Assembly: GCF_004010195.1 (NCBI RefSeq)
Contig: NC_057752.1
Location: forward strand, 5,141,535-5,205,534
Direction of reading: 5' to 3'
DNA from: Chiloscyllium plagiosum
Taxonomy: Eukaryota
DNA length: 64,000 nucleotides
Position numbers and translations under genes: made by a program. Numbering within the stretch: the first letter of the stretch is position 1; each line of letters begins with the position of its first letter. Shown in pieces: positions 22,221 to 46,638 of this stretch. The notes under the pieces were generated by a model that searched no databases, had not been told where the DNA came from, and saw nothing but the letters and a program-made list of their open reading frames with translations.

Positions 22221-22712
<492 letters not shown>

Positions 22713-23234
22713 TAGATGGACAAATAGTTTGACAAGATGTCCTGTTCGCACATGGAGAATGGGTAAGGTACCAGAGCTGCTGGTCCCATCACAGGAGAAG
22801 AAAATAGGCAAACTTGAGCCTACATTATCGGCCTTCTACTGCATCAGCGATGGAAGGTGTCAACCTCTAGAATGAAGTAACATGGATTTGCTCCTAAAAC
22901 TCATCACGTGGCGTTCTTCCATTCTGAACAGATGGTGGAGCAAAGCGCTGTATCCTCCCATTATGAAGGATGCAAGAATGGTAAACGATTCACCCTGAAC
23001 TGTTATGAAAAGCAGTTTGCCCTACTCCAGTGGGGGAATTATGTGATACAAGACCATAAAAAGAAATGAACTAAGGTGGATTAAGGAATTTCTTTTTGTA
23101 CTTTTGGCAATCTAACTGTAGTTAATGAAATTTCAGTTGTGTTCTGAATTAATCAAGAATATATAAATGCTTCTGTTATCTGCAATCAGCAACCTTTTCT
23201 TGTGGAGCCTCTTGTGATAGACATGGTCACAATT

Positions 23235-23660
23235 GTGAACACTCTCATTTTGGAAAGTGTAGTTATGGCTTCAAGTTCCACTTTGAGAAATGTTAGTATA
23301 TAATCAAAGCTGAGACCTCAGTACTGAGGGAGAGCTGCACTGTCTGAGGTGCCATCTTTTGGATGAGATGTTAAAGTAAGTGGCGATCTGCCATTGATTG
23401 GACCTAAAAGATCCACTCACAATGTTAGGAAGAACAGCAGGTGAGTTCTTTCCCAATGTCAACATTTATCCCGAAACTAACATCAGTAAAGTCAATCTTC
23501 TGATTGTGTATTTTGTTGTTTGTGGGATCTGCTGTATGCAAATTGGCTGCTACACTTCCTGCATTACAATAGATATGACACTTTCAAACCACTACATTGG
23601 CTGTGAAGCACTTTAGAATGTTATAAAGACATGAAAGATCCAATTAAATATATGCTTTTT
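23235..23660 (+). mobile_element. Deu-domain SINE (SacSINE1/AmnSINE1-like)
   Basis: Well-preserved core cagtactgagggagagctgcactgtctgaggtgccatcttttggatgagatgttaaag...taaaagatcc, with a tRNA-like head and the characteristic tail. Confidence 0.8.
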
Positions 23661-24479
23661 TTCATTCTTTAGATGGACAGCTTTGTTCAGGATGGCTGGA
23701 ATAAGGGGAAAAATGCACATAACCGGGGAAATGTTCACCTTATGCTCTTATGCCTACTATGTAGTGTAACTGAGTTTCATATAACTTTTTTGACATCCCC
23801 AAAATTTTCACAAGACACACCAGTAACGTAGTGTCCTGGTTGCTGACATAATTAAAAATTAATTCCTAATTTTATTTTTCCCTCTTATAAGCCAAAAATC
23901 AGCTTCCTTGGAGATCATTTTTCTTAATTTCTTTTTTTTTGTTGCCTCGATCTTTTTGTATTTTATTGACAGGCATTCTGTATATTTTATAAATCAAAGC
24001 ATATTCCCTTAAAATATTTTGTTTGTATTTTATCCTTGCTGCAGCAGGGTACAACCACAATATCCAGATATTCAGAGATTAACTTTGCCATGCTTACAAA
24101 TGTACTTTTATGAGGCATGTTTGCTCTGAGAACCTTGATATCTCATTAGTGAATGGTATATGGTGCTGGCAGTTAAGCTGACTGGCATCTGAGGAGGTGA
24201 TTTCTTCAGAATAAAAACCTTTGTAGTCAGAGCCGTAAGCCACTGGGATACTGAGGTTATCTGATTAGTAGCCAGGCCATTCAGCCTGTAAGCGTCCTAG
24301 TTCAATTTCCTTGAAAGGTCATTTGGAGTAGTGATGGAACATTACAATTTGTTTCAGAGCCCTGGATTAGCTATTTTCTAATAAACCTGTTCAGCAATCT
24401 TATTATACTCTATAAAGCGGGTGGGACTTAAACCCGGGCCTCCTGGCTCAGAGGTAGGATCACTACCACAAGATCCCTA

Positions 24480-24692
24480 AATGTAAAGTTGCCATAGTCC
24501 TAGTGGACCATAGAACTGCTCTCTTATTAGAGACAGATGACTAGTGGTGAGTTTAACTGGGGGCCATCACATCCCAGGCAAGGTTGAGAGGGCAGGACCT
24601 TCATGATCTTCAGAACATCAACTGAACCCACGCAGTTGCCCCCACTCTGCACCGCAAATCAGCCATCCAACCAACTGAGCTAATCAACTCCA
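24480..24692 (-). mobile_element. tRNA-derived SINE (MetaSINE-like)
   Basis: Reverse complement of the family at 43500-43720 (tagctcagttggttgga head; gttaaactcaccactagtcatctgtctctaataagagagcag). Confidence 0.65.
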
Positions 24693-25133
24693 AAACTAAT
24701 CCAGTACTCCCAGGAATGCAGTATAAAGCTGGACTCTGGTAGGACTTTAAATCCCTTCAACCTCCTCTGACCACAAGTCCAACACAGTATCTACTGCACT
24801 GCAGTGCCATTTACAAAATCATGGTTTGATCTGTGGATATTTCTAATCAACATATATGGGTACGTGATGATACACCTCTGGAGCAGGTGGGCCTTCTGGA
24901 TAAAAGGTACAACCATGACCATAGCACTGCAAGAGCCCATAAAATCTTAGCATAAATGATCGTATTCAGTTTGAGTTTGAAACTTATGATGGCTGATTTA
25001 AAACCCACATTTGCAATGGTTGGGAATCAAACCCTGGTCAACTGCTTGGAAGGCAGCAATGCTCACCACTGCCCAGGATTAGGATGGGGAGTGGAGGAAA
25101 GAGAAGAGGAACTGGGGCTTCTATTCTTATGGA

Positions 25134-25345
25134 GGAGAAAGTGAGGACTGCAGATGCTGGAGATCAGAGTTGAGAGTGTGCTGCTGACATAACACAACAG
25201 GTCAGGCAGCATCCGAGGAGCAGGAGAATCGGCATTTCGGGCATAAGCCCTTCATCAGGCCTGATGAGGGGCTTATGCCTGAAATGTCAATTCTCCTGCT
25301 CCTTGGATGCTGCCTGGCCTGCTGTACTTTTCCAGTACTACACTC
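25134..25345. mobile_element. Penelope-type palindromic remnant with back-to-back decayed hammerhead cores
   Basis: Inverted repeat centred near 25260 (...cataagcccttcatcagg|cctgatgaggggcttatg...). CTGATGA-stem-GAAA on both strands. Confidence 0.8.
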
Positions 25346-28300
25346 CCCCTTCTATTCTTACGCATTGTCTTGTACTCTCTGCTGAAAAAAACATGCGTGG
25401 CTTTGAATGTTGAAAGATCAGAAAGGATTCTGCTTTGAGATTCCATTTTCATATTAAGAATTATCAAATGGATGAGGTGCTTGAGGGCAGCCATTATCGG
25501 GCCTTTGAGTTCAAGATTATTGGCTGTTTTTGGAGATCAGTGTATTGAAAACAGCAGAATATGAAGGAATGTCATCAGAGAACTTACTCCCAAAGGATAG
25601 TAAGTTGTGAACGAGCCCATGAAGGAAAGACATGAATACAGACAGCTTAGTGAATTTTGTAGTTTTGAATGTTTTTTTTATTGAGATATGGATGGGGAAT
25701 TGGATGTAGTTAAAGAAAAGAATTCCATTTCATTTATATCAAATATTGGGATCTCTCACTTTCACATCACTATTGAGTGAGCATCTACAGTTCAAGATGC
25801 TATCTGAATGAAAGTTGTTGATGTCAAGAGCAGAGGGATTTTGGAGTTCAGTTTCAGATATACATGGCATTAAATGGACAAGACATGCACCAAGTGGAAA
25901 AGGCCATTCAAAAAAGCAAACAGAATACTGGGTTTTATGTAAAGAAGTGTAGAGTCCAAAAATCAAGACATAATAGTGAGTCTCTATAAAACTTTCATAA
26001 AGGAGTCAGCGCAGCATTACTTTTGAGCTTCATGCTCGTGGAAAGCAATTGAGAGGGGATACTGCAGATTCCTTAGGATGGGAGAACCAACAGAACACAA
26101 GACGCAATCAGATGAATGTCGTCTCTTTGTGCTGGCTGTAAAGGGTTGGACATTCCGACTATGCAGTGGTTAAGCACATAACTGTCCATAATTCAACACT
26201 GGCATTGAATTACATTATCAAGATAACAATTAGCCGAAACCAAACAATCTGATATCCGAGGTTAAGACTTAAGAACATTGTTGGGCTTTACTAACAAGTG
26301 GGTAGGATTTTCAGAGATTCTCATAAGCTCCTACTTTAACTTCACTAAAACCAGGAAAAATTAAATGGTTGTTTTCATTTTCAACAACTTTCCACAAATT
26401 CTGCCAATCTTCCACTGAAGAAATGGAATGGGGTTGTGTGTGAAGTGTAGGGATTGAGAAAGTCTTCTAATCTCAACCTGACCCAAATGTTTAATTCTAA
26501 CACTGGTACCCAGTCAAACTGCTGTCCTGATCTGTGCTGATATTTCACTTTGCTTCTAGTAACTTCAAAGTGAAGTACATTAAAGCACAGCAGTCTGGAA
26601 GAGTAGAAGCCAGGATCTCATTTGTCTATGGAGATCCAAAGGTTATGCACTTCCCTCAGTCCAGTGCAATGCATCATCTCACAACAGACATCAGAGTGGT
26701 TATGTTGACACCTGTTTGAGCAGCCACTCGCCAAGATAGTGTCAGCACAGATAAACTCAAGAGCAGTGGAAAATAATACCAGCAAAGACAGCTGTACTTT
26801 CAACAAAATAATTATTGGAAATCTCTGCCCATAGCTGTCACAGCATTTTTCAAAGCTATTTTCTCCTGTTCAGCAATCTGGCTGAATCCTGTCCTTAGCT
26901 GAGGTGGCAGATTAGAATGCCTGCTGCCAAACCATTGACAATGCAGAGAAGAAAGAGCATAGACCAGTAAGAATTCTGTCTTCTTTATATTTTTTTTCTT
27001 TTTCCCTCCTGCCTCTATCCTAAAATGAGTGAGACAACTGCATTTAGCTCACCTCCATTTGAATAAAGATTCAATTCTTCACACTACTCCAGGTATTCAG
27101 TTGATATGGTAGACTATGGGGTGGATGAAACAGGATGAAACACTTCCTGCAGAAACAAGGAATGGTGGAAATTAAGTGTGACTTGTGCTTGTGTACATTG
27201 GTGACAGAGATCAGACCAGATTGTCTTTCTGCTAAAGAATTAGCATAGAGGGAAGTGGGAAGAGAGAAAAAAAATAGAAAATACCTCAGTTAAAAAAAAG
27301 AGGGAAAATAAATTAAATATAAAAAGATGTATTTTTGTCAATCGAACACGATGGAAGTCCTCAACAAGAACTGTGTACTCTAAGGTCTAAATTCTTAAAT
27401 GAGCAGTTTGTGCAATGTGTGGGAAGTTTAAGACAGCCCTCTTGTTCCCACAGCTAATGCTTCCCTTATTGAAATAAGAACCTCTCAGATGTTTATTGAT
27501 GGGAGAAAGAGAGAATTTGCGCACTAATTCAGGAAAATGTACAAGGAGGAACATTCGTAACTTTCCCTTCTGTATAGCAAGACAATTCCTGGATGCTTTC
27601 TTTGGCAGATCTGTTGCTGTTTTCATTAAGCATATGCAAGCATTAAAAACACAGAATTCTAGGGTTCAACCCAGTTAAGCAGCTAATTTAAAACATTTTT
27701 TAGGCAAATACAAGGTGTTTCAAAATCAGTGCAGCTGCATCTGGACAAACTGCAAATGATCAGAAATTTTAAAAAGCATTTAAATAATGTGTTGGTTTGA
27801 ATCCAGCTGATAAGGCAGCTGATGTCGGAGACTGCATACGGCCCACCCAGGACTGAGAAGGTTGGAGCTATTGTGTGTCCCTTATGACGTTATAAAGAAT
27901 AGGAAATATTGTGACTGAGAGGGGAGTGGACAACGTTTTTCCATCCATATGTTAATACTCCTCTAACTTCCTGGCCTCAACGAAGCACATGAGAATTCTG
28001 TTGACCCTCCCTCTCTCTTTTGGGAACCACTTGAATGTTGTTCTGTCTCTGCTAACAGTATAGCTAAGGCAAGTATTTTCTGGCAGGCATTAGCTTTCAC
28101 GTTATCATTCCACAGCATAAGATATGGGACATTACCATTAAGAGATGCTTTCAAAGACTTTTCTCTCCATCTCCATTGGTGAAGCCAGAGTTCTTTAGTA
28201 TCAAACCCAAAAGGCCATTTCTTCATGCAGATCAGGATTAGTAAGTATTCACAGGTTATTCAGTGAGTGTAGCCCAAATATAAATGCCAGCTAACTTAAC

Positions 28301-28737
28301 ACATTGCAAGCCCAACATGTGACCTTCTGGTTTGTCTGAGTTGGTTTTCCAATGAGTGGTACTTCATCCATGAAACCACCACTTGGGTTTTGCTTCTGGA
28401 TCAATTGCATATCTGGCACATACTGCCAGACTTCAAGTTTGAGCTTCCAAAGTAAACAAAAGAAGATTTTCACCTGCTTGTTTTCATCATAGTTTGCACA
28501 CCTCCTCTCCATGGAGATGCTGTTCACTTGTATAACACCAGAGCCTACATTCTGGCTGACAAAGCCAAGGTTTCGGAGGGCGAACACCAAGTAAGTGCTC
28601 GAATTGAATAGCTGAAGGTTTGCAGTTCTCTATTACCAAGTACTGATAACTTCCTCCTGCTTGTCCAGGAGGGACTACACTACCAGCTAGAGCATTCACT
28701 TATCAGATTCTCCAAGGTAAACTCTAAAGATACTCAG

Positions 28738-29183
28738 GAGAAAGTGAGGACTGCAGATGTTGCAAATTGGAGTCGAAAAGTGTGGTGTTGGAGAAGCACA
28801 GCAGGTCAGGCAGCATCCAAGGAGCAGAATTGACGGTTCTGGTATAAGCCCTTCATCAGGAATGTAGGGGGTGGCTGAGAGATAAATAGGAGGGTGGGTG
28901 GGGCTGGGGGGGGGAAGGTAGCTTGGAAGGCAATATGTGGATGCAGGTGGGAGGTGATGGTGATAGGTCAGAGTGAAAGGTGTCCATCCTCCTTTCCACT
29001 TATCCGATCCACCCTCTGCTCCAACCTATCACCATCACTCCCCACCTGCATCTACCTATCGCCTTCCCGGGTACCTCACCCACAGAACATTCCTCCCCCC
29101 TCCTCATTTATCTCTCAGCCCCCTTTCTCCTGTTCTTTGGATGCTGCCTGTCTTGCTGTGCTTTTCCAGTGCCACACTTTTCG
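28738..29183. mobile_element. Penelope-type inverted-repeat remnant with a 17-bp flanking direct repeat
   Basis: Same left end as the 25134 element (gagaaagtgaggactgcagatg). Arms are mutually complementary. actctaaagatactcag occurs at 28721-28737 and 29184-29200. Confidence 0.8.
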
Positions 29184-30139
29184 ACTCTAAAGATACTCAG
29201 ACTTTATTCTCAGGTCTTGAGCTCTCCAGATTCCGTCAGTGAGCTTGATTAGCATGCCCATTATCAACAGCACCCTAGATTTGCCTGGTTCAGTTTTCAG
29301 CTGACCAGGTCTGTCACAGAGGGTCAATGTTACATCTGTTACTAGACATTCAGAATCATCATTTTGAAGCCAAATAACATCCCACTCCCCACACACCCCT
29401 CAAACCTCTTGAGACTCTACTCACGACCCCTTGCCTCACAAAGGAGGATGGTCAGTAGTTACTTGTTACACAGCTGAGTAGTGTGGACAGCAGATACCAG
29501 AAATACCCCAAATTTAGCTAGTGAACAACACAGTTAATCATAAACTGTGGGAGTACATTATCATCATCCTCTCCTGACCTAGACATCAACACAGTCTACC
29601 TGCCCCTACCAGCACAGACAGTCTAGAATTAAATTACGGTTAGCACCAAGCACTGGATGTATGAAAATGTGGTTTCCTACCTGACCTCCCAGGTAGCACC
29701 GTCGAGTAGCTGCCTTTTCAAGATTACAATATTTTGGAAGGACTACTCGGACAGATTGTTTTACACCAGTTAGCTTGATGTTCTGGTGTGACACCACAAG
29801 CTTATTCTTCATCAACTGAGAATATTCTGTGCCAGGTACAGCAGTATAAGTGCATCTAAATGGGTAGACTATCCAATTAATGATGCAATCACAAAGTCAG
29901 TTCTTTCTTCGCCTAATATCTGCACACACTTGTTACCCAACAATCCCTTGCTGAGAAAAAAAACAATCCTTTGCTGGAATCTAATAATAAACACTGGCCT
30001 TGGTTGTTTAAACCCCCTGAACTATCATGAGACTAAATACATTGAAGTGGGCAGTCCATTCTCATTGCCTGCCAACTGCCATACTTAATAATAAATGGAA
30101 TGAGAAATTTTACTTTATGAAAATCACAAAAGAGGATCT

Positions 30140-30492
30140 TAGTGAGTTTTGAGAAGATTTGTGGTTGAGGTTTTGGATGTAGGTTGAGGTTTTGGATGTA
30201 GGTTTGCTCACTGAGCTGAAAGGTTCATTTCCAGACATTTTGTTACCTTACTAGGTAACATCTTCAGTGGACCTCATGTGAAGTGGACCCCATCTACCAC
30301 CCCCTGAGAAAAGGAACAGGAAGTGACTTCACCACCAGAAATGACATTACCAACCCAAAGAAACCCAAACACATAAATAGAAAGCATGAATTTTCAGCCT
30401 TGCTTCGCGTGAGGCCCACTGACGATGTTACCTAGTAAGGTAACGAAACGTCTGGAAATGAACCTTTCAGTACAGCGAGCAAACCTACATAC
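30140..30492. mobile_element. Penelope-type element remnant (second family) with inverted arms
   Basis: Arm ~30196-30275 is the reverse complement of arm ~30411-30490. Each arm carries a hammerhead-like motif. Confidence 0.8.
30416..30455 (+). ncRNA. Minimal type I hammerhead ribozyme motif with an intact core
   Basis: CCA-CTGACGA-T-GTTACCT-agta-AGGTAAC-GAAA-CGTC-TGG: stem I CCA/TGG, core CUGANGA, perfect 7-bp stem II, GAAA, palindromic ACGU stem III, and GUC cleavage triplet (after 30452). Confidence 0.75.
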
Positions 30493-32003
30493 AAAAGAAG
30501 ATGCATGTAGACTGGTACAAGAAATAAACCAACAACGGCACTGGATTCCAACAGAGGCACAAGTAATTTACCCTAAATCACCCAGCATGTTTTCCAATTG
30601 TAAAATACATTGAATTTTCTCCCTCCTTTGCTTATTTTTCTATTCCAAAGAAGATAAATCATCTTGTGGAAGAAAGCCACAGGTGTTAGTAGTCCTCTGG
30701 TACCTTGGCCATGCGGCCTTTTATTGGATGGCATCTCTGTCAATGAGGCTTTGGTTGGTTAAACATAGTTATGGGGAAGTGCACATGAGAAAATCTTAGT
30801 TCCATGGTGCAGTTATTCACATAGCCATGAGGTAGTTCTTCCCTATATCATGAATGAAATGTCTGCACTGAACAGTTTTATACAGTGCACCTTTACAATG
30901 GGCATTTATACTTTGAATCAATTCAATCTTTCTGCAAAATTTAAGTAACATTCACTATTAAATTATTCCCATTAGCCTCCAAGTTTGATAAAGTTAATCT
31001 TTTTACCTGGACAGTGTCTCCTCTCAAATTGACCTAATTAATATAATTTTCAAATATTTGCATAATTGATATACATTCCATATTGCCTTCTGGATGAAGG
31101 TGTTCACATTTTAAATCCCTGACTGATGTGCCTTTCCCTACTTCTCTGAATTTGGCCCCTGGGTCTCTTGTCAACATTGACTAGATTCAAACATTAGTCA
31201 GTCTGTCTTCTTTCTGGCTGTAAAACATATCAGTTCTAGTGAACTGAAGCTGCTAACTAGGTTATGGCAATGAATGCTTCACAACACTGCAAAATAAAAG
31301 TCCTGCCATCCACAAAATCATTTTAAAACTGAAATATTTTACAGAAAATTCTGTTTGGAATATGTTCTTTTTCTATATAACACTCTATTCTTAGTAATTC
31401 TCCAAGCCAGTTCTGAGCAAACCATTGTTATGGTTTGGAATTAGCATGAATACACAAAAAATCCTTAACTCGGAGATTCAGTAATGTCTGCTCATTCATC
31501 TCCACTGTGCTACTAGATTCAGTTCAGCTAATTTTCTCTAATACTATCAGCATTAATACTATCAGCATTCTCTAATACTATTAGCATTAGCTGTATGTTT
31601 AAAAGAAAATCAAAGAAAATGCAAATGTTAGTGAAGTTTATCATAATTCTCCATGTTTGGTCTCGTTTAGAAAGGACACAGGTGTACAATCTGATGAAGT
31701 AGCATGTATTGTTCAAGCATGTAATTTCTCACATGTTGAATTAACAATTGGAGGTTGTGGGTCTCACTGCAGGGGAGGGGAAATCCGATGCAAATTCACC
31801 TTAGCTACTCTATAATAACTCTTGGCAGGTGGTAGATTGACAGTGGTTTGGGAGCCGCAATCGATACCCTTCAGTTCTTTATTCATTTTTAAGCACAGTA
31901 GTAGTTAATAAAATCACAAAAGATCATCCTCTCCTCTATGTCTGAATACAGCACTTGTTTCTTTACGAAAGTATAATGGGGAATGGAATTTGGAATTTAT
32001 AAA

Positions 32004-32171
32004 GGAGTGGATTTTCAACTTGCCACCCAAGTGTCTAGTTGACATTCTGCCACCCATCATAGAAATTGTCTTTTTATCATTTCCATTGAAATCAGTTTGA
32101 CATTTTTCATAATTACTAGCTGATCCACAATGTCAGTTCTATGTACAGAAGGCAAGTTAAAAATCTATCCC
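32004..32171. mobile_element. Short MITE-like element with imperfect terminal inverted repeats
   Basis: ggagtggattttcaact ... agttaaaaatctatccc (13/17 complementary). The ends resemble the Harbinger-type GGGxxGAxTTT termini elsewhere in the window. Confidence 0.45.
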
Positions 32172-32407
32172 AAGGCGTTGAAAATTAATTAAAGAATGGA
32201 GGTTGCGTGGTCTGAGTTCAAATAAGAAAATTAAATCTATATATTTTCATTTATTTCATCTTGCTGCACTGAGTCATTTTAGTAAGATCAAAATTGCATA
32301 TTCTAAATTGCAAATAAATGTATCAATGAATTGTTAACATGACCAGTTGGGCACAAACATGGTAGTGTTTCATTCCTCGCAGGAAATAAGTCCTGACTTT
32401 ACAATTA

Positions 32408-32582
32408 GCAACAAAAACAGAAATTGTTGGAGAAACTCAGCAGGTCAGCACACCATCTGAGGAAGAATCACTGGACTCAAAACTCTTTCTTCCCAAAAAT
32501 TCTGCCAGACCTGCTGAGTTTCTCCAACAGTTTCTGTTTTTGTTTCAGGTCTCCAGCATCCGCAGTTCTTTGCTTTATTTTA
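32408..32582. mobile_element. Penelope-type palindromic remnant (third family)
   Basis: aaaaacagaaattgttggagaaactcagcaggtc ... gacctgctgagtttctccaacagtttctgttttt form inverted arms, with a degenerate CTGAGGA...AAAA core between them. Confidence 0.75.
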
Positions 32583-33164
32583 GAATTAGTGTATTGTCCT
32601 ATTCATTAATTGGTGTTACAGAGTAAGGGAGAAATGCTGATAATAGATCCTAGAATGTGCAACTCAGCAGTACTGTTATAACTAATAAAAGCTTACTTGA
32701 CATCCCTTGTTACGTTTGTTCAAACTCTGACTCTGGCAAATAACCAATCTGTTTGTCTTTGTGTGATGACTGTCCATCCATAACTTGGTCATTCAGTGAG
32801 CCTCCTCTCATGACTACATCCTGTCTCCAAGAGGATATTTTAGTTAAGTGTCCTTCTTGAGGGGAAAGTTGACATTTCATTCATTAACCTTCCAAGCAAG
32901 GAAGGTGTAAATTGCTAATTCCATCCTCCTCCTCCTCCCATTTCTAATTTTAGAAGCAGTAGCATCCTCGCTGATTACAACCAAAATAGTACAATAACAC
33001 AATAACACATCAAAATTAAAACTGAAAGATTGTCATTTGTTTTTCCGGCTTCTGTTGGCATAGAACAGGCCTAGGTGTCATCACTGTCTCTCTTTGAAGC
33101 AGGTTATTTTTGGGTCAGAGTATTTGTTGGAAAATGTGTGATGTCAACATAGCATAGCCTAAAA

Positions 33165-34020
33165 TAAGTATAGAGAATGCTGGAAATACTGAAATTGGTC
33201 TGGCAGTATCTGTGGAGAGAAAAACAGAATGACAACAAGAATTTTATCAGCACATCATCGGTTTCACTGCTAGGATCAAATATGCATCCCAAGCTCATTC
33301 ACGTGGGTCAGTGGTGGGACAGCAAAGTGGATTTTTCTGGTGACTGCCAAACAAGAAGCTAATGCTGGGACTGCCATCCAAATTAAAGATGGTGGCCTGT
33401 CTCTCCAAGCTGCTGGCTCAACTGGAGTTCTGCAGTGTCACTGATGCGATCTCTACATTGTCTGCAGGGACAGAGAGGCAGGCAGATCTTGGAGATTGTC
33501 GGGAACGGTGAAAAACTCTACAGCAGTGGTGTGGGATCTGCAGGCACAGTCTCCAATGGCCATGGAGCATCCAAAAAGAAAGGTTTCCCCTCTTTTCAAC
33601 CCTATCCCAGAAGTAACTGAAAGGCAATCTTGATGTATTTGGCAGTCTCCCAACATATAGGAGATACAAACAGCACCTTAAGATGGAAGCTCTGAAAAAC
33701 TTTTACATTTTTTTAAAATCAAAGGCCATAGCCACCAGGCCATATTATGGAGGAGCAGAACCCTCTACTGGATAGCCCAATGGCTATACTGGGAGGTGGG
33801 CAGGCAGATTTCACAGCTGGATGGAACACTAGATTTCCAGGAAGCTGCTTCCATATCTCTTGGCCATATTCCAGCCTTGGGTGGGAACCCACATCCTAAT
33901 TGGAAAATTCAAATCCACAATGAACTCTGCCTCTCTCTCCACAGGTACTGTCAGAACTTGATAATTTACAGCCTTGCTGTTTTTATTTCAAATTTTCAGC
34001 ATGCACGGTATTTTGCTTTC
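33165..34020. mobile_element. Penelope-type palindrome (third family) split by a ~680-bp Harbinger-like MITE (~33233-33916)
   Basis: Left arm ggtctggcagtatctgtggagagaaaaacaga and right arm aactctgcctctctctccacaggtactgtcaga flank an insert bounded by gaatttt (33239-33245) and aaaattc (33904-33910). Confidence 0.6.
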
Positions 34021-34554
34021 ATAATAGTGTAACCTAAAACAGACACTGATGCTAATAATCCTACATTGCCACACTTTTTAGAAGCAGCCTCATTGTCAAA
34101 TTTCCCCAACCACGCATTTGCAGTTGCTGAAGGTTTGCATTTGCTCAACCTAAAGTTTCTGTCTTCCTTCAAAGGTTTCACAGTATATTTGTGGAAGTTC
34201 GTAGGTAGAAATCCCATGTTCCAACTTTAACGAACTGGTTCCTGTGTTCATTTGAATTTCTATGCGACTTTTAACCATTATTAATCAAAGCAGAGGAATT
34301 TCTACCCCTGGAGCCTCACTTAATCTAATTTTATGTTACCTCTAAACTCAATAGAAAACCACAATCCTTTTCACCTGGAAAGGGAACTTTCATGATTATT
34401 TTTCTCTTGAGACAGAGAGATGTTAAGACTTTAAATAGCCATTTTTGGTTTTGTGTGTATCTTCAATTTGTTCTTTTTGCACTTGTGGAAGGTTAAAACA
34501 GCTGTACCGCTGTGGTATTGTGCAATGTATTTTGAAACGTTCTCATTTTGATTC

Positions 34555-35171
34555 CTCCTCTGAATTTTCAGGCCCTGTAGAGGGGGACAGGGAGAATAGA
34601 GGTGGATAGAGCCAAAATTACCATTATAAGGTGGTACGCTAATTTCTTGGTTGCAGATAATTTGGCAAAGGCGGTTCTGAGCTATTAGGGTTACCTATTC
34701 GCACAATAGTGGGTAGCAAATTCAGTTCATTAAAGAGCCTTATTAAGTACGCTTAAGGGAGGTTGACTGGGGTATCCTGTTGGCTTCCAGGTTCCTGAAC
34801 TGACAGTGGAGAGGGTGAAAAAATTATTTTATTTGCCTTGGGCTAGCGCACTAGGCAGGTCTAAAAGTACTCTCTACTTCTCCACCCATTCCCACACTGG
34901 TGCCCTGGCTTCTGTTTCTGTTATTTAAACTTCTAAAAAAATGTTGGCGAGAGGATGCCTCCATGTTAAAGCACTCTCTGTTAGTAACTACCTATTGTAG
35001 TCAGCTGCTCCTCCCAAGCTGGAAAACATTGATAGACCCTTTAGTTTCAAAAGCCTGCTGGCTGCCCTTAAAAAGACATTGCCCGTGCCAATTAAAGGGG
35101 CATTTCTTCTTGAAAATCCCAAATAGTGATTTCCAATTGGGCAGGTATTCTACCCAGCAGAGTTCTGACCC
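34555..35171. mobile_element. Probable Harbinger-like non-autonomous element
   Basis: Begins ...ctgaattttcag and ends agagttctgaccc. GC-richer interior with repeated ttaa/caatt motifs. TIRs are degenerate. Confidence 0.35.
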
Positions 35172-35656
35172 CTGTTTCCTATCACTGGTGAGGAAGTCCA
35201 GCCCCTTATCACCAGTGGAATAGTGGCAGGGTGTTTCAACTGCCATGTGTCCCTTGGCAAGTTAGAGATTGGCATAGCCAGCATTTCTACAATTGATTTA
35301 CTTTCCAACAAGAGGCACTGGATAGATGAAGTCTGAAAATTGGTTGAGTAAAGCATCCTGCTTGATTGTGGTGTTCACCATTGTCAAAAAGTCTGCATAA
35401 GCCTAAATAGCAAGCTTACACACAAGTGTGAGATTTTCTAGTTTAGCCTCAGGAATAACATGATTTTCTTGTCCCGTACTAAGAGTCAGCTCAACAAGGT
35501 GGAAGCACTCATCCCTCTGAATTGGAATGCTGTGGGCTCAAAAATAGTTCCTTAGTCGTGAAGCACTTTAAGACATTATGAGAACGTGTAAGAGGGTATA
35601 CAAACCTCTGACTTTACATTAATAGTGTTGATGGGAGGGCTGGTATTGAACTGCAA

Positions 35657-35860
35657 TTAGATTAGATTAGATTCCCTACAGTGTGGAAACAGGCCCTTTG
35701 GCCCAACAAGTCCATACCGGCCCTCCGAAGAGCAATCCACCCAGACCCATCTCCCTCTGACTAATGCACCTAACACTATGGACAATTTAGCATGGCTAAT
35801 CCACCTGACCTGCACATCTTTGGACTGTGGGAGGATACCTGAGCACCTGGAGGAAACCCA
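35657..35860 (-). mobile_element. HE1-type V-SINE, 3' part
   Basis: (TTAGA)3 tail, then ttccctacagtgtggaaacaggcccttt...cacctggaggaaaccca, the reverse complement of the 3' half of the 15421 copy. Confidence 0.9.
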
Positions 35861-37714
35861 AATCCAAGAGCTTGTTAGGGTGCAGAGATCACATTGAGAG
35901 CTCAGGCATGCCAGCCTAGTTCACTAGGCCATTTGGTGATTCATTTTAATATGTGCACCTATCTATATAAAATGGATATCAACCAGTTCCTTCTGTTAGT
36001 CCCAGCGGGATCCCTGCTGCAGTACTGATTTTGTTGGTGTGTTAATGAATTCTGAAGAAAAATGATTTTACATTTTAAGATCTATAATACTGTTGCTCCA
36101 CAAAGACTGAAAGTTTCTTCACTGTTCTTAACAAATATTTCTGTCATCCGTGCTCTATTTGCTTTGAACATATTTTATTTATCCCTGTATCCCAGAGAAT
36201 GTTTTAATGTTGAGCAGGTTGGTTGTTAGGACAGGTGCAAGATCCTATGGGAATAAAATAGGATTCATTGCAAAGGTTGCTGAAGGTTTTAGTCCTTTGA
36301 ATATTATTACCTTCCTGAGGCTTTGGCCAGCAGTCAGCAGATAAATACTGTCAATGTTTAATTAGTCTCCTGCTGGAGCCCACTGGGGTTATTAAATGGT
36401 TCAGATTGTAGAGACATGACTGGTTCACTTAGACATGCTAAATTGCACAAGCCCTGTGCAGTGCTGACTGATTTTACACCTCTCTCAGCTTCAGGATTGC
36501 AAATGTGCAATACAGCTTTTTCATTTCCTCTGCCAATTTTCTTCTCTCCTAAAAATGTTTACATTAAACCCACCACTACCTGACCCAAGTAGTCATTATT
36601 CATGTGTAGATGTTGGCAGGCTATTTGAGAATCACAGTCGAAACCCTCCTTCATCTCGCCTCTAGCACCTGAAAGTAGAAACATCGGTGGTTCTCCTCCT
36701 CCACCCTCAAAACTAAATAGAGACTAGTCCAGACTAGAGATCAGAACTTTGCATATCCAGTCACTACAAAAAAGAATGAGGCATTTGAGGACCCTGTGTA
36801 GTAACCTGCCATCACTCTTTGGTGTATATCTGCTTGTTCTCTTGCCAAAACTGGATGAAATTTTTAAAAATGAAATAACCAAAAGTGACATAATGAAAGG
36901 ACCATCGTCAAGCAACCAAATGTAGGCTAGCAAGGGAGATTATAACAAAAATGATAGTTGATTAATATCAGATTAAACTGAAGGGCCCTTGTTGTCTTCC
37001 AACTGATGTCTCATCCCATATTTCAATTTTCACGTCCTTGGGTTCTCCCAACCTTTGTTGATGAATCTGCTGGTGGTACAGTAAATGTTAGTACAAACTA
37101 GAGAGGTTATAGGCTTGATCATGATTTGTGCTCAGTTTACTGACATCAGTGAGAAGAGTGTGGCATTCTTTTCATAAGCTTTTACATCTTGCTGAGGTAC
37201 CTTCAAAAACCTGCTTGTTTGACCACATCCTTAGTTGACGACTGTAACTCCTTTCTTTAAACTCCTGCTTGACACCAATGTTTTGCCCACACTGTTCCTC
37301 TGTAAAAAGCAGAAGTGTTTAATATTCAGTCTTTGCCAGATGTTCCAGTTCTATTTTGTCTGAAGTCTAATCTTCCTTTCAGACATGTGCTGTAATATAA
37401 TAACGGTCTACAGGGAGTGATTACAAGGTTGTAATCTAATTGGACAGCTTAAACAACATTATGACCATGAAAGTGAATCTTGAGCGGTTTGTATTATTTA
37501 TTCAGTAAATTTTTAAATTGTATTTTCTGCTGTGCCCACTCTTTTATGTTTAACCACTCCTGACTCTCTGCCAATAACTATGCCCCAGTTGAGAGGATAT
37601 TTCTCTGTAAACAGTTTACAATAACTTGTCATTTCCATGTGACCCCCCCGACCCAGCTGATTTATGTTTGGGGAAGTGATTAGTGTAAGCTGCTGAACCC
37701 CTAGTTTTTTAAGT

Positions 37715-38425
37715 TATTTAGTTATTTACAAGGCAAGGGTAGTCAAACATGGTGTCATTAAAGGTGGCAGGATAGGTAGAGAGAGCAGTTAAGAAAACTC
37801 ACAGTATTCCGGTTTTATTATTAGGGGCATAGCATACAACAGCTAAATAGATTGTGCTGAACTTGTTTAGGACATTGAATAGACTTCAGCTGGATTACTG
37901 TGTAAAGTTCTGGGTGCCACACTTCAGGAAGGATGTGAATGCGTTAGAGAGTGCAAAGCAGATTCATACAAACAGTTCCAGGGATGTGACACTTCAGTTC
38001 TAAAGATGGATTGGAGAAACTAGGATTATTGTCTTTGGAGAGCAGAAGGCTAAAAGGAGACTTGATAGAAGTTTTGAAAATCATGAGGGATCTGGACAGA
38101 AAGGAAAGGAAGAAACTGTCCCCGCTGGTACAAGGATCAAGAATGAGACAGCACAGATTTAAAGTAATTTTGAAAGGAAGCAAATGCATTGTGAAAGAAA
38201 ATAAAACTTTTTCTTCCATCTGGTGGTGAGGGTTTGGACTGCACTGTCCAGAAGTGTGGTGGAAGCAGATTCGATTGCAGCATTCAAGAGGATATTAGAT
38301 GATTAATTAAATAAAAATAATATGCAGGTTTGAGGCAAAAATGCAGAAGAATGGCGGAAAGTCATAATACTCACGCAGTCAGCCAGTGCAGATGGCTTCC
38401 TTCTGCACCATAATGGTTCTATGAA
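37715..38425 (+). mobile_element. Older CR1 LINE 3' fragment
   Basis: LDYCVKFWVPHFRKDVNALE near 37889, and ORF 38011-38229 (LEKLGLLSLESRRLKGDLIEVLKIM). Confidence 0.88.
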
Positions 38426-38959
38426 CATGGGCTTTAACCTCTCTTGCACAGGAGCTGCCAGAAATGGTGCCATTGTTAGCCACAAGCAGTTCATAAACAT
38501 TACTTAAAGATGCTACTGATTAAATCCTCAGTCGTTGTGTTGCAGATCTTGTGCTGGTGCTTTTTTTTTAAAAAAAACTGGCCACTAGGTCTGTTAGTCT
38601 ACTGCGATTGATGCAGTCTCCGAAAAGTCACAATTCAATCCACTTGCTGAACTTTCCACCTCAAGTTAGTCATGTTACTAATGTCACCTTGTTCACACCA
38701 GTACCTAATGCTACATTATGCAACATGGCTCTCCACAAATCTCATGTTTGGAATAGCAAAATCTAGAATTGTATCTTTGAACGCCTAATAGAAACATAAA
38801 AATCAAAGTATAAAAATTCCACAATCGCCACGAGGTTGAATGATACTGAATTGCTTAACATTCCGGAGGTAGTTTTCCAAAGTTCAGTGTTGATATAAAC
38901 TGGCTTAGTACTGTACTATTTTGAATTATGGGAAATGATTGAACAACTTAACAGGAGGA

Positions 38960-40030
38960 GACAAATATTCCCATCCTCAATTAGGGGGAGCCCAGTGCAA
39001 AAGGTGTGGCTGAAGCATTCACAGCAATCTTCAGCCAGAAGAGCCAAATGTATGATCTATCTTGGCCTCCTCTTGAGTGCCCCAGCATCACAGATGCCAG
39101 CCTTCAGCCAAGTTGATTCACTCTATGTAATAGCAAGAAATAGCTGTAGACACTGGGCATTGCAAAACAATGGACCCTGACAACAGTATTAAAGATTTGT
39201 GTTGCAGAATTAACCACACCCCTCGCCAAGCTGTTTCAATACATCTACAGCACATGTCAGCACTTGATGCCCATTTAAGTCCTACATGCACAAAGCAGGA
39301 CAAATCCAACCTAGTCAATTAACAACCCATTAGTCTACTCTCAAGCATCAACAAAGTGATGGAAGTTGACGTTAACAGTGCTTTCAAGCAGTATTTACAA
39401 AAGTTTAGCGTGCTCACTGATGCTTAGTTAGGGTTCTCTGCTGGTGGAAGTCATACCTAGCAAATAGGAAGATGGTCATGGTTGTTGAAGGTCAATAATT
39501 TTAGCCACAGAACATCTCTTCTAAAGGTCCGTAAGGTGGTGTCCTAGACTCAACCATCTTCAGCTGCTTCATCAATGGCCTTCTTTCCATCTTGGGTCAG
39601 AAGTGGGGATGTTTACTGCACAATGTTCAGCACCAGTCACAACTCGTCAGATACTGAAGCAGCCCATGTTCAAATGCAGCAAGACTTGGACAATATTCAG
39701 GCCTGGGCTGATGTGCTGCAAGTGTCAGGCAATGACCATTTCCAAGGAGAGAATTGAACCGTCTCCCTTTGACATTCAGTGGCATCACCACTGCTGTATG
39801 TCCCACTTTCAAAGTTCTGGAGTTACCACTGACAAGAAACTCAACTGGTCCAGCACTGTAAATATTATGGTGACAACAGCAGGTCAGAGACTGGGAATTC
39901 TGAGTGAGTACCTCTCTTTCTGACTTCCCAAAGACTGTCTGCCATCTATACCCAGCAACATAGAATGCACTCATTCAAAATAACCTTCTCATTATAATCT
40001 TCTCCGTGGCAATTAGAGATGGGCAATAAA
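38960..40030 (+). mobile_element. Second CR1/L2-type LINE family, internally deleted RT fragment
   Basis: AEAFTAIFSQK, PISLLSSINKVME, QQDLDNIQAWAD, CQAMTISK and AGQRLGIL motifs across frames. Homologous to 56770-58713 and 58790-59812. Confidence 0.8.
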
Positions 40031-42389
40031 TTCAGTGAAGGCTAAGTCCAATTATTGAATACAAATGTTTCCAGTGTTTTTAATAGATTACTATACTTAT
40101 ATTTAATCATTGAGGTGATACAATTGCTGGTTATTGTTATTTTCCATTTAACACGCTTAAAAGCCACAAAATGTGGGTACCAGTACTGCACCAGCAAGCA
40201 GGTACAACTAAAGTTGACAGTTTCATATTTGTTCAGCAATTGAGTGGTCAATTTTTGCGTTAGTCATTAAATGATGGTGACCCTCCATCCAAATACCTGA
40301 ATATTTGCAATTACTCTGAGGGCTCAGTGGGCAACTAGTTAACTAATACTGAATAGTACACATCAAGCTGGTCCCAGCTTTAATTTGTCATTTATCCTCA
40401 ATTAGCAATAGTAGTGATGGGAACATAACATTTGGGCTCAAAGCCTAAGGACAGCAATAGGGAACCCCAAGCTAGCAAGTATGTGTGTGCAGCTACAAGT
40501 TAAGGACAGATTAACATGTTTGCACTATCCACCACAGCACCTACAACTTCAGGCTCACATGAAGAAAAGCATGGATGAGGTACTGAAAGGCTGCAAGCAT
40601 TAATGCAGCAGTCCAGCAAAGGTGTGGGCCTCAGGCGAGGACGGAGGAGAACAGCAAGGAATTGGAAGAAAAGCAAATGGTTGAATACTAACTGCAAAAC
40701 GAAGTACATTATTCAAATCAACATGATTGGAAATGAGAGCTGTGTAATTTCTATTCTCTGTAGGTTTCTATAGTAAAATAATGCAAGAGCAGCTGACCAT
40801 AATGTTTGTGGAATGATTAAAAAGATTTGTCATTTCATTGGTCCACATTTACCAAGTTCTTACCTTTTTTGTTGATTGTGGGAAATTTCTATATTCAACA
40901 ATCAATATCCAGCAGCAATTGCAAGACATTTATGTCTGTGAAGGTCAAACAATGGCACAAACCTAGAGAGTTAAACAAAAATAAGATGAGTGTTGAAATT
41001 GCTTCCCTATATGTGTTCTCGGGGTGGACATATTCTGCTTTGTTCCTTGTCATTGGCGTTGTCATGTCAAATTGCACTGGGAGTTTAGGATGTCACTACA
41101 TTTTTCAAGTGAGAATCAACAATTGGCAACCTCAGTTTTTGTTTCAATGCAGTAGGTGCTGACTGAGTACAACCTGCCCTGCTATTAATATTTGATATTG
41201 CAGTATCAATGACCTGAAATTGAATATCCTCGTAGATCATACATATAAGGAAAGGATTGGAAGAGATTGTATTATTTTGAGTACCTTAAAAGAACCGCTC
41301 TTAGTTCTGATGATTTATTCTTTTACAGAAGGCTGATCAGACTTTGTGTGGCATGAGCTTGCCAGGTTTCACATTTTAGCCTAACATCTGGGTCATCCAG
41401 TCAATTGGCAGCAATCCAAAAACCAGCTTTGAAGATAATATATAGGGACCAAAGTTCTTACGATGCTCTGGGGTTGGGTAACTTAGAAAGATTGGAGATA
41501 AGGACAGATTTGCACAAAGGATCTGTTCTAGGAATGCATCAGGTCTGATCTGAAACAATATTGTTTATCAGCAAAAGATAGGAGAAGTTATATAGGACAT
41601 AAATAACAGCTCAGAAGGTTACAAAGCTGACATCCACAAGAGTGAACCTCAAGCAGTTCATACAGCTGTCAAAAATTTAATAGTATTACACGTTTCCAGG
41701 CATTGTTTATATTTTATAAATAATATTTTAGGGGTAAAAGGGTGAACATTTCTGTTGGCATTCCTTTTTTTAACAAAGCTTTTCATGTTGTTATCTACAA
41801 ACTTTTGACATGATTGTAGTTCTTTTGATAGGAGATGGACTTGTTTAAGAAGTTAGTACTAGGATCTTTGTTATAAAGGACAGATAAAAATGCTTCTCGG
41901 GTCAGAGAATTTTGCTGGGGAAAGAACAGACAACTGCAAGCTCTGGTTCCTTCCAAAAGAGGCGAATTCTCGCAAATAAAGTTCTTTCAGCAAGACTAAC
42001 AGGATAGTGATTTGGGAACTCTGTTGTTTTACTCCTTTCTCGGTAAGCCATGCTGGGGAGGGTGGGTGGGGTGCTGCAATTATTGTGCCTTAGTTGCTGC
42101 CTAAGCTTATATCTACAAATTCAGTACATCAGAGCCAGAGTGAACTTGGTCTGAATGGTTCGGTAACGCATTGGGTAGTCCATCCACCCCTCGTTATTTC
42201 ACAATTTGAATATTTTCAATAGTTCTGTCATGATCTAATGATAAAACTTGGTACTGTATATTAAGTCAAGTACGTTTTAATTTCGGAAACTGTCATAAAC
42301 AATTCACCATTTTTTAAGGTTAGCAAGTTATTTTAATTGGTGCTTAAGTCACGTGGCAAGATCATAGTTATTGTTTGAAGCAAATATTT

Positions 42390-43316
42390 GAATAAAAACA
42401 GAAGGCGCTGGAGAAACTCAGCAGGTCTGGCAACATCCGTAGAGAGAGAAATAGAGTCGACATTTTGAGTATAGCTCCAAAGAGATATACTGGACGTGAA
42501 ATGTTAATTTTGGGCTGAATTTTCCCAGCCACTGAACAATGTGGGTGTGATGAGAAAATTTGCATGATTTGGGTAGCGAGTAAATTCCCAATGCAAGAGC
42601 TAAAAGTCGCATTTTCCAAAGGAGTGTTGAACAGTGAGATGAGATTCTCATTAGTGAGCGGCGAGAGGCTGATTTCCATGGATCAGCATATATTAACATC
42701 TCATAGTGACATCACCTGACCTCATTGATATTCCCATTCTCCCACCTTCAGGATAAAAAGTAGATGGAGACAATTCCCAACATGAAAGTCAGATCAGTAA
42801 CCTTGTGACTCCAAAGCACTGCTTGTTCGTCTGGACCTTGTCAGTCACCAACACCTCAGGGCACACTCCATGGGCAATGACTGCACATTCTCTCTCCCCC
42901 CCCCCCCCCCCCCCCCACCCCATCCACCAGGACCTCCAGGTCCCTGTCAGTAGAGTGACAAATACCCTCTGAGGCAACTGACAGGAACTATGATGGGCAG
43001 CTGCAGAGTGCCTGACCCAGTGTACAGCTTGGTTTTAAAGGTGGTGCAGATGGCAGAAATCCAGGGAGGTCCCAGCAGCGGCCTGTGTCGAGTGGGAGAA
43101 TACAATGGGGGTAGGGTGGCATAGGGATGTGGTACACAGGTAATGCAGTGAGTTTGGGAAGATAGCACAAGAAAACTCACTAGGGCTCACAGAAAGAAAC
43201 CCTCCACTTAGTCAATTTCTAGTAAAATTCAGCTCTGTGTTACTTTCTCCATAGATGTTGCCAGGCCTGCTGAGTTTCTTCAGCACTTTGTTTTGATTTC
43301 AGTTCTGCAGTACTTT
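42390..43316. mobile_element. Penelope-type palindrome (third family) interrupted by a Harbinger derivative
   Basis: Left arm aaaaacagaaggcgctggagaaactcagcaggtctggcaacatcc and right arm ccatagatgttgccaggcctgctgagtttcttcagcac flank the insert at 42512-43235. Confidence 0.75.
42512..43235 (-). mobile_element. Non-autonomous Harbinger element retaining a Myb/SANT exon remnant
   Basis: TIRs gggctgaattttc / taaaattcagctc (11/13 complementary). The minus strand encodes STDRDLEVLVDGV (~42915-42953) and IAHGV...QTNKQC...KVTDL (~42790-42878). Confidence 0.7.
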
Positions 43317-43499
43317 AGAATCACTGTAACTGTCTATGTTTTAATGTCTTGTGATGATGATTTATTACTTGGACTGTGTGGTTTTCATTGGGAATTGCAT
43401 TTTTATATGCCTGTAATAAAAATACATGTTCTCCACATGTTTTTGCATAATTATGATGGTAAGTACAGTTGAATGATTATACTGAAGGAGGGGAGAGGA

Positions 43500-43720
43500 A
43501 GGGAGTTGGTTGCTTAACTCAGTTAGCTGGGCAACAGGTTTGCAATGCAGAGTGATACCAATAGCCTGGGTTCAATTCCTACACCAATTGAGGTGACCAT
43601 GAAGGACCTGCCTTCTCAACCTTTCCCTTTGCCTGAGGCATGGTGACCCTCAGGTTAAACTCACCACCAGTCATCTCTCTCTAATAAAAGAGCAGCCTTC
43701 TGGTCCTATAATATCTGGCA
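43500..43720 (+). mobile_element. tRNA-derived SINE (MetaSINE-like)
   Basis: A/B boxes (taactcagttagctgg, gggttcaattcc), then gccttctcaacctttccctttgcctgaggcatggtgaccctcaggttaaactcaccaccagtc. Confidence 0.7.
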
Positions 43721-45967: not shown

Positions 45968-46638
45968 ATAATTCATTGGCCACTAAAACAGGTGGCTGTT
46001 TCCCTTCTAAAGCCATGGTAACACTGGAAAATGGACAAACCCGAGCTGTGTCAGAGCTGAATCCTGGGGACTGGGTCTTAACAGTGAATGCAGTTGGCCA
46101 GGTGGTCCCCAGTCAAGTCCTTCTCTTTCTTGACAAAGAAGAAGAACTGAGAATCTCTTTTACTGTGCTGGAGACTGAAGATCCCAGACAGCGGCTGGAA
46201 CTCACAGCAGCACACCTCATCTTTGTTTCTGATAATAACACTGACAGAATGGAGAACTTTAGACCGACATTTGCTAGTCGAGTACGTACGGGTCAGTTCG
46301 TCCTTGTGAGAGAGATTGGCTCAGGCCAGTTGCGTTCATCTAGGATTAAAGCTATCTATGTGGAAGAGGACACTGGTGCCTATGCACCACTGACATCTCA
46401 TGGCACATTGTTAGTGAATAATGTACTGGCATCTTGTTATGCAATGATAGAGAAGCACCATTGGGCACACCTGGCATTTGCACCTCTCAGACTCTTTCAC
46501 TCATTGACTTCTTTGTTACCAGTTCTCCATCCTCGGTATGACAATGCCACACAGGAGAGTGGCATCCATTGGTACTCCAGGTTTCTCTACAGCTTAGGTG
46601 AAAAGGTTCTAGACAGGGAAATGTTTCACTCTTTATGA
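45968..46638 (+). CDS. dhh: Hedgehog family gene, terminal coding exon 3 (G|CF autoprocessing site, Hint domain, sterol-recognition region)
   Basis: Acceptor ttctttttatctttcag|AT, phase 1, matching exon 2 (G+AT = Asp). DNSLATKTGG|CFP (Cys codon 45997-45999), LTAAHL, GAYAPLTSHGTLLVNNVLASCYA, GIHWYSRFLY, TGA at 46636-46638. Open frame throughout. Confidence 0.96.

What the first reader, a model, noticed from the sequence alone, without database searches (positions are those of the whole stretch)
30416..30455. Intact minimal hammerhead ribozyme core in the sense strand of hedgehog intron 2
Seen: CCA CUGACGA U GUUACCU-agua-AGGUAAC GAAA CGUC UGG. All core nucleotides are present, with one extra U after A9, a perfect 7-bp stem II, a 3-bp stem I, a palindromic ACGU in place of stem III and a GUC cleavage site at 30450-30452. 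The partner arm on the - strand (30231-30270) has the same fold but GAAA>AAAA and CGTC>TGTC, so it is a dead core. Established: minimal type I hammerheads with a palindromic stem III occur in Penelope-like elements and cleave efficiently as dimers, and an extra residue after A9 is known in natural hammerheads. Inference: every hedgehog pre-mRNA would carry a potentially self-cleaving motif, held in check by the need to dimerise and by pairing with its upstream antisense arm (~80-bp hairpin). Its three CpGs survive while the partner's have decayed, which is weakly suggestive of retention.
Basis: partly seen in the sequence, partly recalled or inferred. Interest (0 to 1): 0.72.

Follow-up and report, generated by a model that had tools for sequence, protein, structure and literature searches.

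The report
Stray jumping-gene ribozyme in hedgehog intron
The self-cutting-RNA motif is really there, but it is the end piece of a very abundant, known kind of jumping gene (Penelope-like); this copy has no partner to pair with, is predicted to be locked in a long hairpin, and likely does not cut the hedgehog transcript.

Summary
The motif is exactly as described, on the sense strand of hedgehog intron 2 (22567-45967). It is the minimal hammerhead at the 3' end of a Penelope-like retroelement: longer sister copies carry reverse transcriptase and GIY-YIG, and the ORF's stop codon lies in stem II. The family is abundant: 6,048 first-look candidates, and 168 of 829 exact-pattern copies keep both core CpGs (20%). 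A head-to-head pair with one intact and one dead arm is the commonest state (10 of 21). One of the three 'surviving' CpGs is a private gain (A in 44 of 47 copies). That change is predicted to mispair the core, making this the worst-folding of 19 intact copies. The upstream arm is predicted to sequester it (48 kcal/mol), and no same-strand partner exists between exon 1 and exon 3. The insertion is shared by two related species; in one, its 3' part has diverged no slower than the flank. Published minimal hammerheads do not cut as monomers. Verdict: an ordinary, likely inert retroelement relic. The scan has already reported the same kind of motif on other DNA of this and other genomes.

The parts
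22305..22566 (+). hedgehog exon 2 (N-terminal signalling domain); paralogue likely Dhh, not settled
   Evidence: LMBR1-family exons about 170 kb upstream on the same contig and strand, DHH-LMBR1L linkage recalled; solved-structure scores do not separate the three paralogues
22567..45967 (+). hedgehog intron 2 (GT...AG, reading frame continuous across it)
   Evidence: exon 1 found upstream in L047
30140..30283 (-). left arm: 3' end of the Penelope-like element reading leftwards, with the ~37-nt optional tail and a 19-nt internal duplication; its hammerhead (30231-30270) is dead; on the pre-mRNA it reads as antisense
30286..30496 (+). right arm: last 211 nt of the element (end of the ORF, hammerhead, 3' terminus at the short end)
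30286..30435 (+). remnant of the last 49 codons of the element's RT/GIY-YIG ORF; its stop codon TAG (30433-35) sits in stem II/loop 2 of the hammerhead
   Evidence: same C-terminus in L020, L021, L025, L038
30416..30455 (+). minimal type I hammerhead, core complete, 3-bp stem I, 7-bp stem II, no monomeric stem III
30423..30423 (+). private A>C change at core position 7; creates a CpG and a predicted GACG/CGUC mispair
30190..30496 (+). 94-bp inverted repeat (30190-30283 / 30403-30496), predicted long RNA hairpin that buries the core
45968..46400 (+). start of hedgehog exon 3 (Hint module; only this part was examined)

Best explanation
The motif is the hammerhead carried at the 3' end of a truncated Penelope-like retroelement copy lying as a head-to-head pair in hedgehog intron 2; in the pre-mRNA it is predicted to be base-paired to its own upstream antisense arm, has no same-strand partner, likely never cuts, and is likely decaying neutrally. 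How it works: in the parent element the motif forms a double hammerhead with a second copy in a tandem transcript (established for the family, PMC4209133). Here one retrotransposition event likely left two short 3' ends back to back (inferred from 20 of 20 two-arm loci sharing this geometry). On transcription the antisense arm is made first and would capture the core as it emerges (predicted). Without that arm the private A>C change would still favour a mispaired fold (predicted). The hairpin would leave with the spliced intron (inferred).
For: Family identity: RVT_1 over cut-off then GIY-YIG then the same terminus with the hammerhead in L038; atlas hits to GIY-YIG clusters at 0.95. Abundance: 6,048 candidates; 168 intact of 829. 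Geometry ordinary: 20 of 30 loci have two arms, all divergent; one intact plus one dead arm in 10 of 21. Folding: 38 of 40 motif bases pair with the antisense arm at P>=0.95, cost of the hammerhead fold 47.7 kcal/mol; open-core probability 5e-5 against 0.008-0.13 in 18 other intact copies. No same-family copy between exon 1 and exon 3. Non-CpG divergence 11 of 203 vs family mean 3.6% in 41 copies. Organism C's orthologous contig has about 5 differences in 56 element bases against 8 in 284 flank bases. Literature; 42-44% of Xenopus retrozyme copies lie in introns.
Against: The right arm keeps 4 of 4 ancestral CpGs and the left 0 of 4 (Fisher p 0.029, post hoc); such a 4/0 pair occurs in only 2 of 17 pairs, this one included. 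Only 1 of 36 non-CpG sites in the motif has changed against 10 of 167 outside (p 0.69), the direction selection would give. The insertion persists in two related species, with about 1 difference in 56 bases in organism B. The positions of the orthologues' differences were not resolved and 30416-30440 was not covered. All folding results are equilibrium secondary-structure predictions without proteins, ADAR editing or tertiary contacts. No cleavage assay and no informative RNA data.
Confidence: 0.88

Rival explanations
1. The core cuts occasionally but without host benefit: RNA of other family copies, or the element's protein acting as chaperone, would supply the missing half in trans when the hairpin is unwound or edited.
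For: Core, palindrome and both stems are complete. Hundreds of compatible partners exist in the genome. A vertebrate PLE hammerhead cleaves only when the element's protein is added (PMC11167929).
Against: A 47.7 kcal/mol penalty with the antisense arm and 6.7 without; the double-hammerhead fold is 11.5 kcal/mol above two monomer ensembles, against 2.7-8.6 for 18 other copies. PMC11167929 found no RNA-seq reads ending at the cut site even for an active element.
Confidence: 0.07
2. The copy has been domesticated as a conditional cut site that attenuates hedgehog pre-mRNA, with the antisense arm as a lock, like the conserved intronic hammerheads of amniotes.
For: Sense orientation in a developmental gene; 4 of 4 vs 0 of 4 CpG asymmetry between the arms; insertion shared by three species. 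Precedent: RECK, CTCL and DTNB intronic hammerheads (PMC6155905 passages).
Against: Two of the four kept CpGs lie outside the ribozyme; 10 of 49 other arms also keep all four; the only change in the core is predicted to harm folding; no dimer partner; organism C diverges faster in the element than in the flank (p 0.046); the amniote cases are canonical motifs conserved across classes, this one is minimal and young.
Confidence: 0.03
3. The relevant feature is the 94-bp RNA hairpin, not the ribozyme: it would act as a double-stranded substrate for A-to-I editing or slightly alter splicing speed.
For: Hairpin of -164.8 kcal/mol, z -15.9. Inverted repeats in introns are typical editing substrates (own knowledge).
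Against: The same hairpin geometry is present at 19 of 29 other loci, so it is a by-product of insertion; it lies 7.6 kb and 15.5 kb from the splice sites; no RNA evidence was obtained.
Confidence: 0.05

Closest known systems
Minimal hammerheads (min-HHR) in pLTRs of metazoan Penelope-like elements (Cervera and De la Pena 2014, PMC4209133; parts 1-3 of 4 read)
   Same: 7-bp helix II, extra base between 9 and 10.1, G10.1-C11.1 pair, palindromic 15.2-16.2 with no helix III, thousands of dispersed solo copies, and pairs on opposite strands ~100-700 bp apart, which that paper describes.
   Different: Helix I is 3 bp here (4-5 bp in the Schistosoma families described; 4 bp in part of this family). 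Sharks are not among the genomes named in the parts read. Position 7 is C instead of the family's A.
PAc Penelope-like element of Anolis (PMC11167929; passages and section 3 part 2 read)
   Same: RT plus GIY-YIG element with a pLTR hammerhead overlapping the ORF boundary; optional 30-40-nt tail, matching the two 3' ends seen here.
   Different: In PAc the ORF starts in stem II; here it stops there. The window copy is a 211-nt stump with no protein.
Conserved intronic hammerheads of amniotes (RECK, CTCL, DTNB; passages of PMC6155905)
   Same: Type I hammerhead in an intron of a host gene.
   Different: Those are conserved across birds, mammals or reptiles; this is a minimal motif still embedded in a high-copy repeat, with no sign of constraint.
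Non-LTR retrozymes (bioRxiv 10.64898/2026.07.22.740005; part 1 of 5 and passages read)
   Same: PLE pLTR-related, type I hammerhead, often intronic (42-44% in Xenopus).
   Different: Retrozymes are head-to-tail tandem units with two same-strand hammerheads; this locus is an inverted pair with one.

Membership tests
PLE minimal hammerhead (min-HHR) | Conserved core CUGANGA, GAAA, UH | tested here: met
PLE minimal hammerhead (min-HHR) | Long helix II (7-8 bp) with G10.1-C11.1 and an extra base after position 9 | tested here: met
   95% of cells paired in 49 distinct copies vs 24-42% for slid controls, covariation weak
PLE minimal hammerhead (min-HHR) | No helix III; palindromic 15.1-16.1 | tested here: met
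   ACGU at 30448-51 with no loop bases
PLE minimal hammerhead (min-HHR) | Helix I of 4-5 bp | tested here: inconclusive
   3 bp in this copy; copies with T at 30415 (17 of 47) form 4 bp; the 4-5 bp figure is from Schistosoma families
PLE minimal hammerhead (min-HHR) | Lies in the terminal repeat of a Penelope-like element | tested here: met
PLE minimal hammerhead (min-HHR) | Self-cleavage as a dimer | not testable with these tools
   only energy predictions
Penelope-like element (parent family) | One ORF with RT followed by GIY-YIG endonuclease | tested here: met
   L038: RVT_1 35.7 bits (cut-off 29.6), then GIY-YIG E 0.003 (18.2 bits, below the 22.6 cut-off), in two frames of a decayed copy; atlas support
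Penelope-like element (parent family) | Optional 30-40-nt 3' tail | tested here: met
   two discrete 3' ends about 37 nt apart
Penelope-like element (parent family) | Clade (Poseidon, Neptune or other) by RT tree | not tested
   no reference RT set was available
Non-LTR retrozyme | At least two head-to-tail units, each with a hammerhead on the same strand | tested here: not met
   arms are inverted; no second same-strand copy
Domesticated intronic hammerhead | Conserved above the neutral flank across species | tested here: inconclusive
   present in organisms B and C; about 1 of 56 and 5 of 56 differences in 30441-30496 vs 3 and 8 of 284 in the flank; positions unresolved, 5' half not covered
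Domesticated intronic hammerhead | Able to fold as a monomer with helix III | tested here: not met
   no loop between 15.2 and 16.2; no Rfam hammerhead match

The most novel reading that the evidence does not exclude
A Penelope hammerhead has been kept in a hedgehog intron across three species as a locked cut site: the antisense arm holds it shut, and RNA or protein of active Penelope copies opens it in trans, tying hedgehog pre-mRNA survival to transposon activity.
Probability: 0.03. Interest if true: 0.72.

Novelty: new member of a known kind. Interest (0 to 1): 0.1.

Why it matters
As it stands it matters little: it is one of hundreds of intact copies of a described motif. It is a useful caution for genome scans: in this genome an intact sense-strand hammerhead in an intron is expected by chance, and CpG survival must be judged against the family (20% keep both core CpGs). 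If the copy did cut hedgehog pre-mRNA under control of its antisense arm, it would be a rare young case of ribozyme domestication in a key developmental gene.

Tried and rejected
Rfam scan of 28000-33000 at E<=1: 0 of 21 matches were hammerhead models; these likely need a helix III. Loose core pattern: not above chance. RNA: no RNA holder listed; one single-cell run of the same species label, about 2 in 100 read, gave 5 reads on 30330-30780, none on the core, 4 only partly fitting, and no end pile-up: uninformative either way. Reading the orthologous core directly: single-copy contigs in organisms B and C begin at 30441 and differences there are hidden under paralogue depth, so only counts could be derived; an unlisted difference could also lie next to the end of the stretch. 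Summed contig depth was not used as a copy number. Target-site duplication: nothing longer than 4 nt shared by the two flanks. Heterodimer with the other-family motif at 25261 (+): palindrome decayed and stem I arms not complementary (sequence); the one other intact core found (C43:5079685) lies 5.8 kb upstream of exon 1's CGPG and has other stem I arms. Naming the paralogue from solved structures failed. Pfam found no family for 2 of 4 proteins and 4 of 5 (decayed endonuclease pieces). L036's long open frame was an assembly gap. Lunse et al. (PMC5785218) was not held. A search for shark + Penelope + hammerhead ribozyme gave 1 paper, where 'shark' refers to the shape; supplements of PMC4209133 were not read and may list cartilaginous fish.

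Full report
Observation. The minus-strand arm at 30231-30270 has the two changes described. The host gene is a hedgehog on the + strand: exon 2 at 22305-22566 matches solved hedgehog N-domains, exon 3 starts at 45968 with a Hint module, and exon 1 lies about 56 kb before the window. The motif is therefore in the sense strand of intron 2. The genome has three hedgehog genes. This one is likely Dhh, because LMBR1-family exons lie about 170 kb upstream (the linkage is recalled), but structure scores do not separate the paralogues.

What it is. A search of the genome with 30160-30500 gave 6,048 first-look candidates; 40 were scored, giving 103 matches. The shared sequence is 30140-30283 on the minus strand and 30286-30496 on the plus strand. 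Longer copies extend into an ORF: in L038 an RVT_1 match over the cut-off is followed by a weak GIY-YIG match and then by the same terminus with the hammerhead; a protein-atlas search of another copy returns GIY-YIG clusters at 0.95. This is a Penelope-like element. The window's plus arm still encodes the last 49 residues of that ORF, and the stop codon sits in stem II. Of 30 loci, 20 have two arms, all 20 back to back, 117-1,372 bases apart. Cervera and De la Pena (PMC4209133; parts 1-3 of 4 read) describe this motif class, including the extra base, the long helix II, the palindrome, thousands of solo copies in fish and amphibian genomes, and opposite-strand pairs about 100-700 bp apart.

Is this copy special? 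An exact 35-base pattern with both core CpGs has 168 matches; allowing CpG decay gives 829; the reversed control gives 0. So 20% of otherwise intact copies keep both. Among 56 sampled arms (top hits, biased towards the window's sequence) 20 have a full core with ACGU, and among 21 two-arm loci 10 have one intact and one dead arm, 9 two dead, 2 two intact. The 'three CpGs' argument fails in part: position 30423 is A in 44 of 47 arms and C only here (3 of 50 hits dropped as partial), so that CpG was gained. The plus arm differs from the family majority at 11 of 203 non-CpG sites, against a mean of 3.6% in 41 copies. Against my reading: the plus arm keeps 4 of 4 ancestral CpGs and the minus arm 0 of 4 (p 0.029, post hoc), and a 4/0 pair occurs in 2 of 17 pairs including this one; but 10 of 49 other arms also keep all four, and two of the four lie outside the ribozyme. 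Inside the motif 1 of 36 non-CpG sites changed against 10 of 167 outside, which is not significant.

Could it cut? There is no loop between positions 15.2 and 16.2, so a monomer cannot form stem III (sequence). A dimer needs a second same-strand copy with matching stem I arms. None of this family exists from 24 kb before exon 1 to the end of the window, apart from assembly gaps (1,288 N between exon 1 and the window end). In the 426-base context 38 of the 40 motif bases pair with the upstream arm at P>=0.95, and forcing the hammerhead fold costs 47.7 kcal/mol; without that arm it costs 6.7. The private C lets GACG pair with CGUC at the cut site: the open-core probability is 5e-5, against 0.008-0.13 for 18 other intact copies, and the double-hammerhead fold is 11.5 kcal/mol above two monomers against 2.7-8.6 (stem I counted as 3 bp throughout). 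These are secondary-structure predictions only. Published assays point the same way: no monomer cleavage and low dimer activity; 'very low, even as dimers' (PMC6765202 passages); no cleavage without the element's protein and no RNA-seq ends at the site (PMC11167929, passages and section 3 part 2). Lunse et al., whose title reports dimer cleavage, was seen only in a reference list and may give higher rates.

Related species. Public DNA runs of two other organisms (B, C) hold the locus. Single-copy contigs run from 30441 across the right junction into the flank in 3 of 3 runs laid from these organisms, so the insertion predates their split; flanks differ by about 1.5-4.5%. By subtraction, B differs at about 1 and C at about 5 of the 56 element bases, against 3 and 8 of 284 flank bases (p 0.51 and 0.046). 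The positions are hidden and the 5' half of the core is not covered, so this does not show loss of the core, but it gives no sign of extra constraint. RNA data were uninformative (see Tried and rejected).

Mechanism. Shown: identity, anatomy, abundance, lack of a partner. Predicted: sequestration and misfolding. Inferred: one insertion event left two 3' ends back to back; 15 of 18 two-arm loci have one tailed and one short end and none has two tails (p 0.003), which fits the two reverse-transcription start sites and both-strand priming reported for PAc. The copy most likely leaves with the intron uncut (confidence 0.88). Rivals: rare trans-assisted cutting without benefit (0.07), a passive dsRNA effect (0.05), domestication (0.03).

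Novelty and score. A new member of a known kind. Intronic position is ordinary (42-44% of retrozyme copies in Xenopus; bioRxiv 10.64898/2026.07.22.740005, part 1 and passages). The scan has 160 earlier findings holding the same words in at least 26 genomes, two of the eight listed in this genome; these are unchecked notes and were read after my own tests. Interest 0.10.

Noticed in passing
L001-L030, two-arm loci; window 30140-30496: In 15 of 18 back-to-back pairs one arm ends with the ~37-nt tail and the other at the short end; none has two tails, 3 score as short/short (p 0.003). This suggests that each pair comes from one event using both reverse-transcription start sites. Sample is biased to top hits.
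   Followed up: partly
window 30416-30435 and family copies: The hammerhead's 5' half doubles as the last codons and stop of the element's ORF (T-E-D-V-T-stop in the family), so position 7 is under coding as well as RNA constraint in active elements.
   Followed up: partly
window 25215-25304: A second back-to-back pair of minimal hammerhead relics from another repeat family (4-bp stem II), both decayed at the palindrome, in the same intron.
   Followed up: partly
window 30027-30041: Contigs of organisms B and C carry several hundred extra bases here that the window lacks (table 8): a deletion in this lineage or an insertion in theirs, 100 bases from the element.
   Followed up: no
window 28914-29078: Another long inverted repeat, giving sub-threshold miRNA-model matches in Rfam; part of it is repeated in other loci.
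   Followed up: no
L048, G000:C43:5079685 (+): An intact minimal hammerhead core with ACGU of the other family, 5.8 kb upstream of hedgehog exon 1.
   Followed up: no
window 30163-30200: A perfect 19-nt tandem duplication inside the left arm's tail replaces the family's usual sequence there.
   Followed up: no
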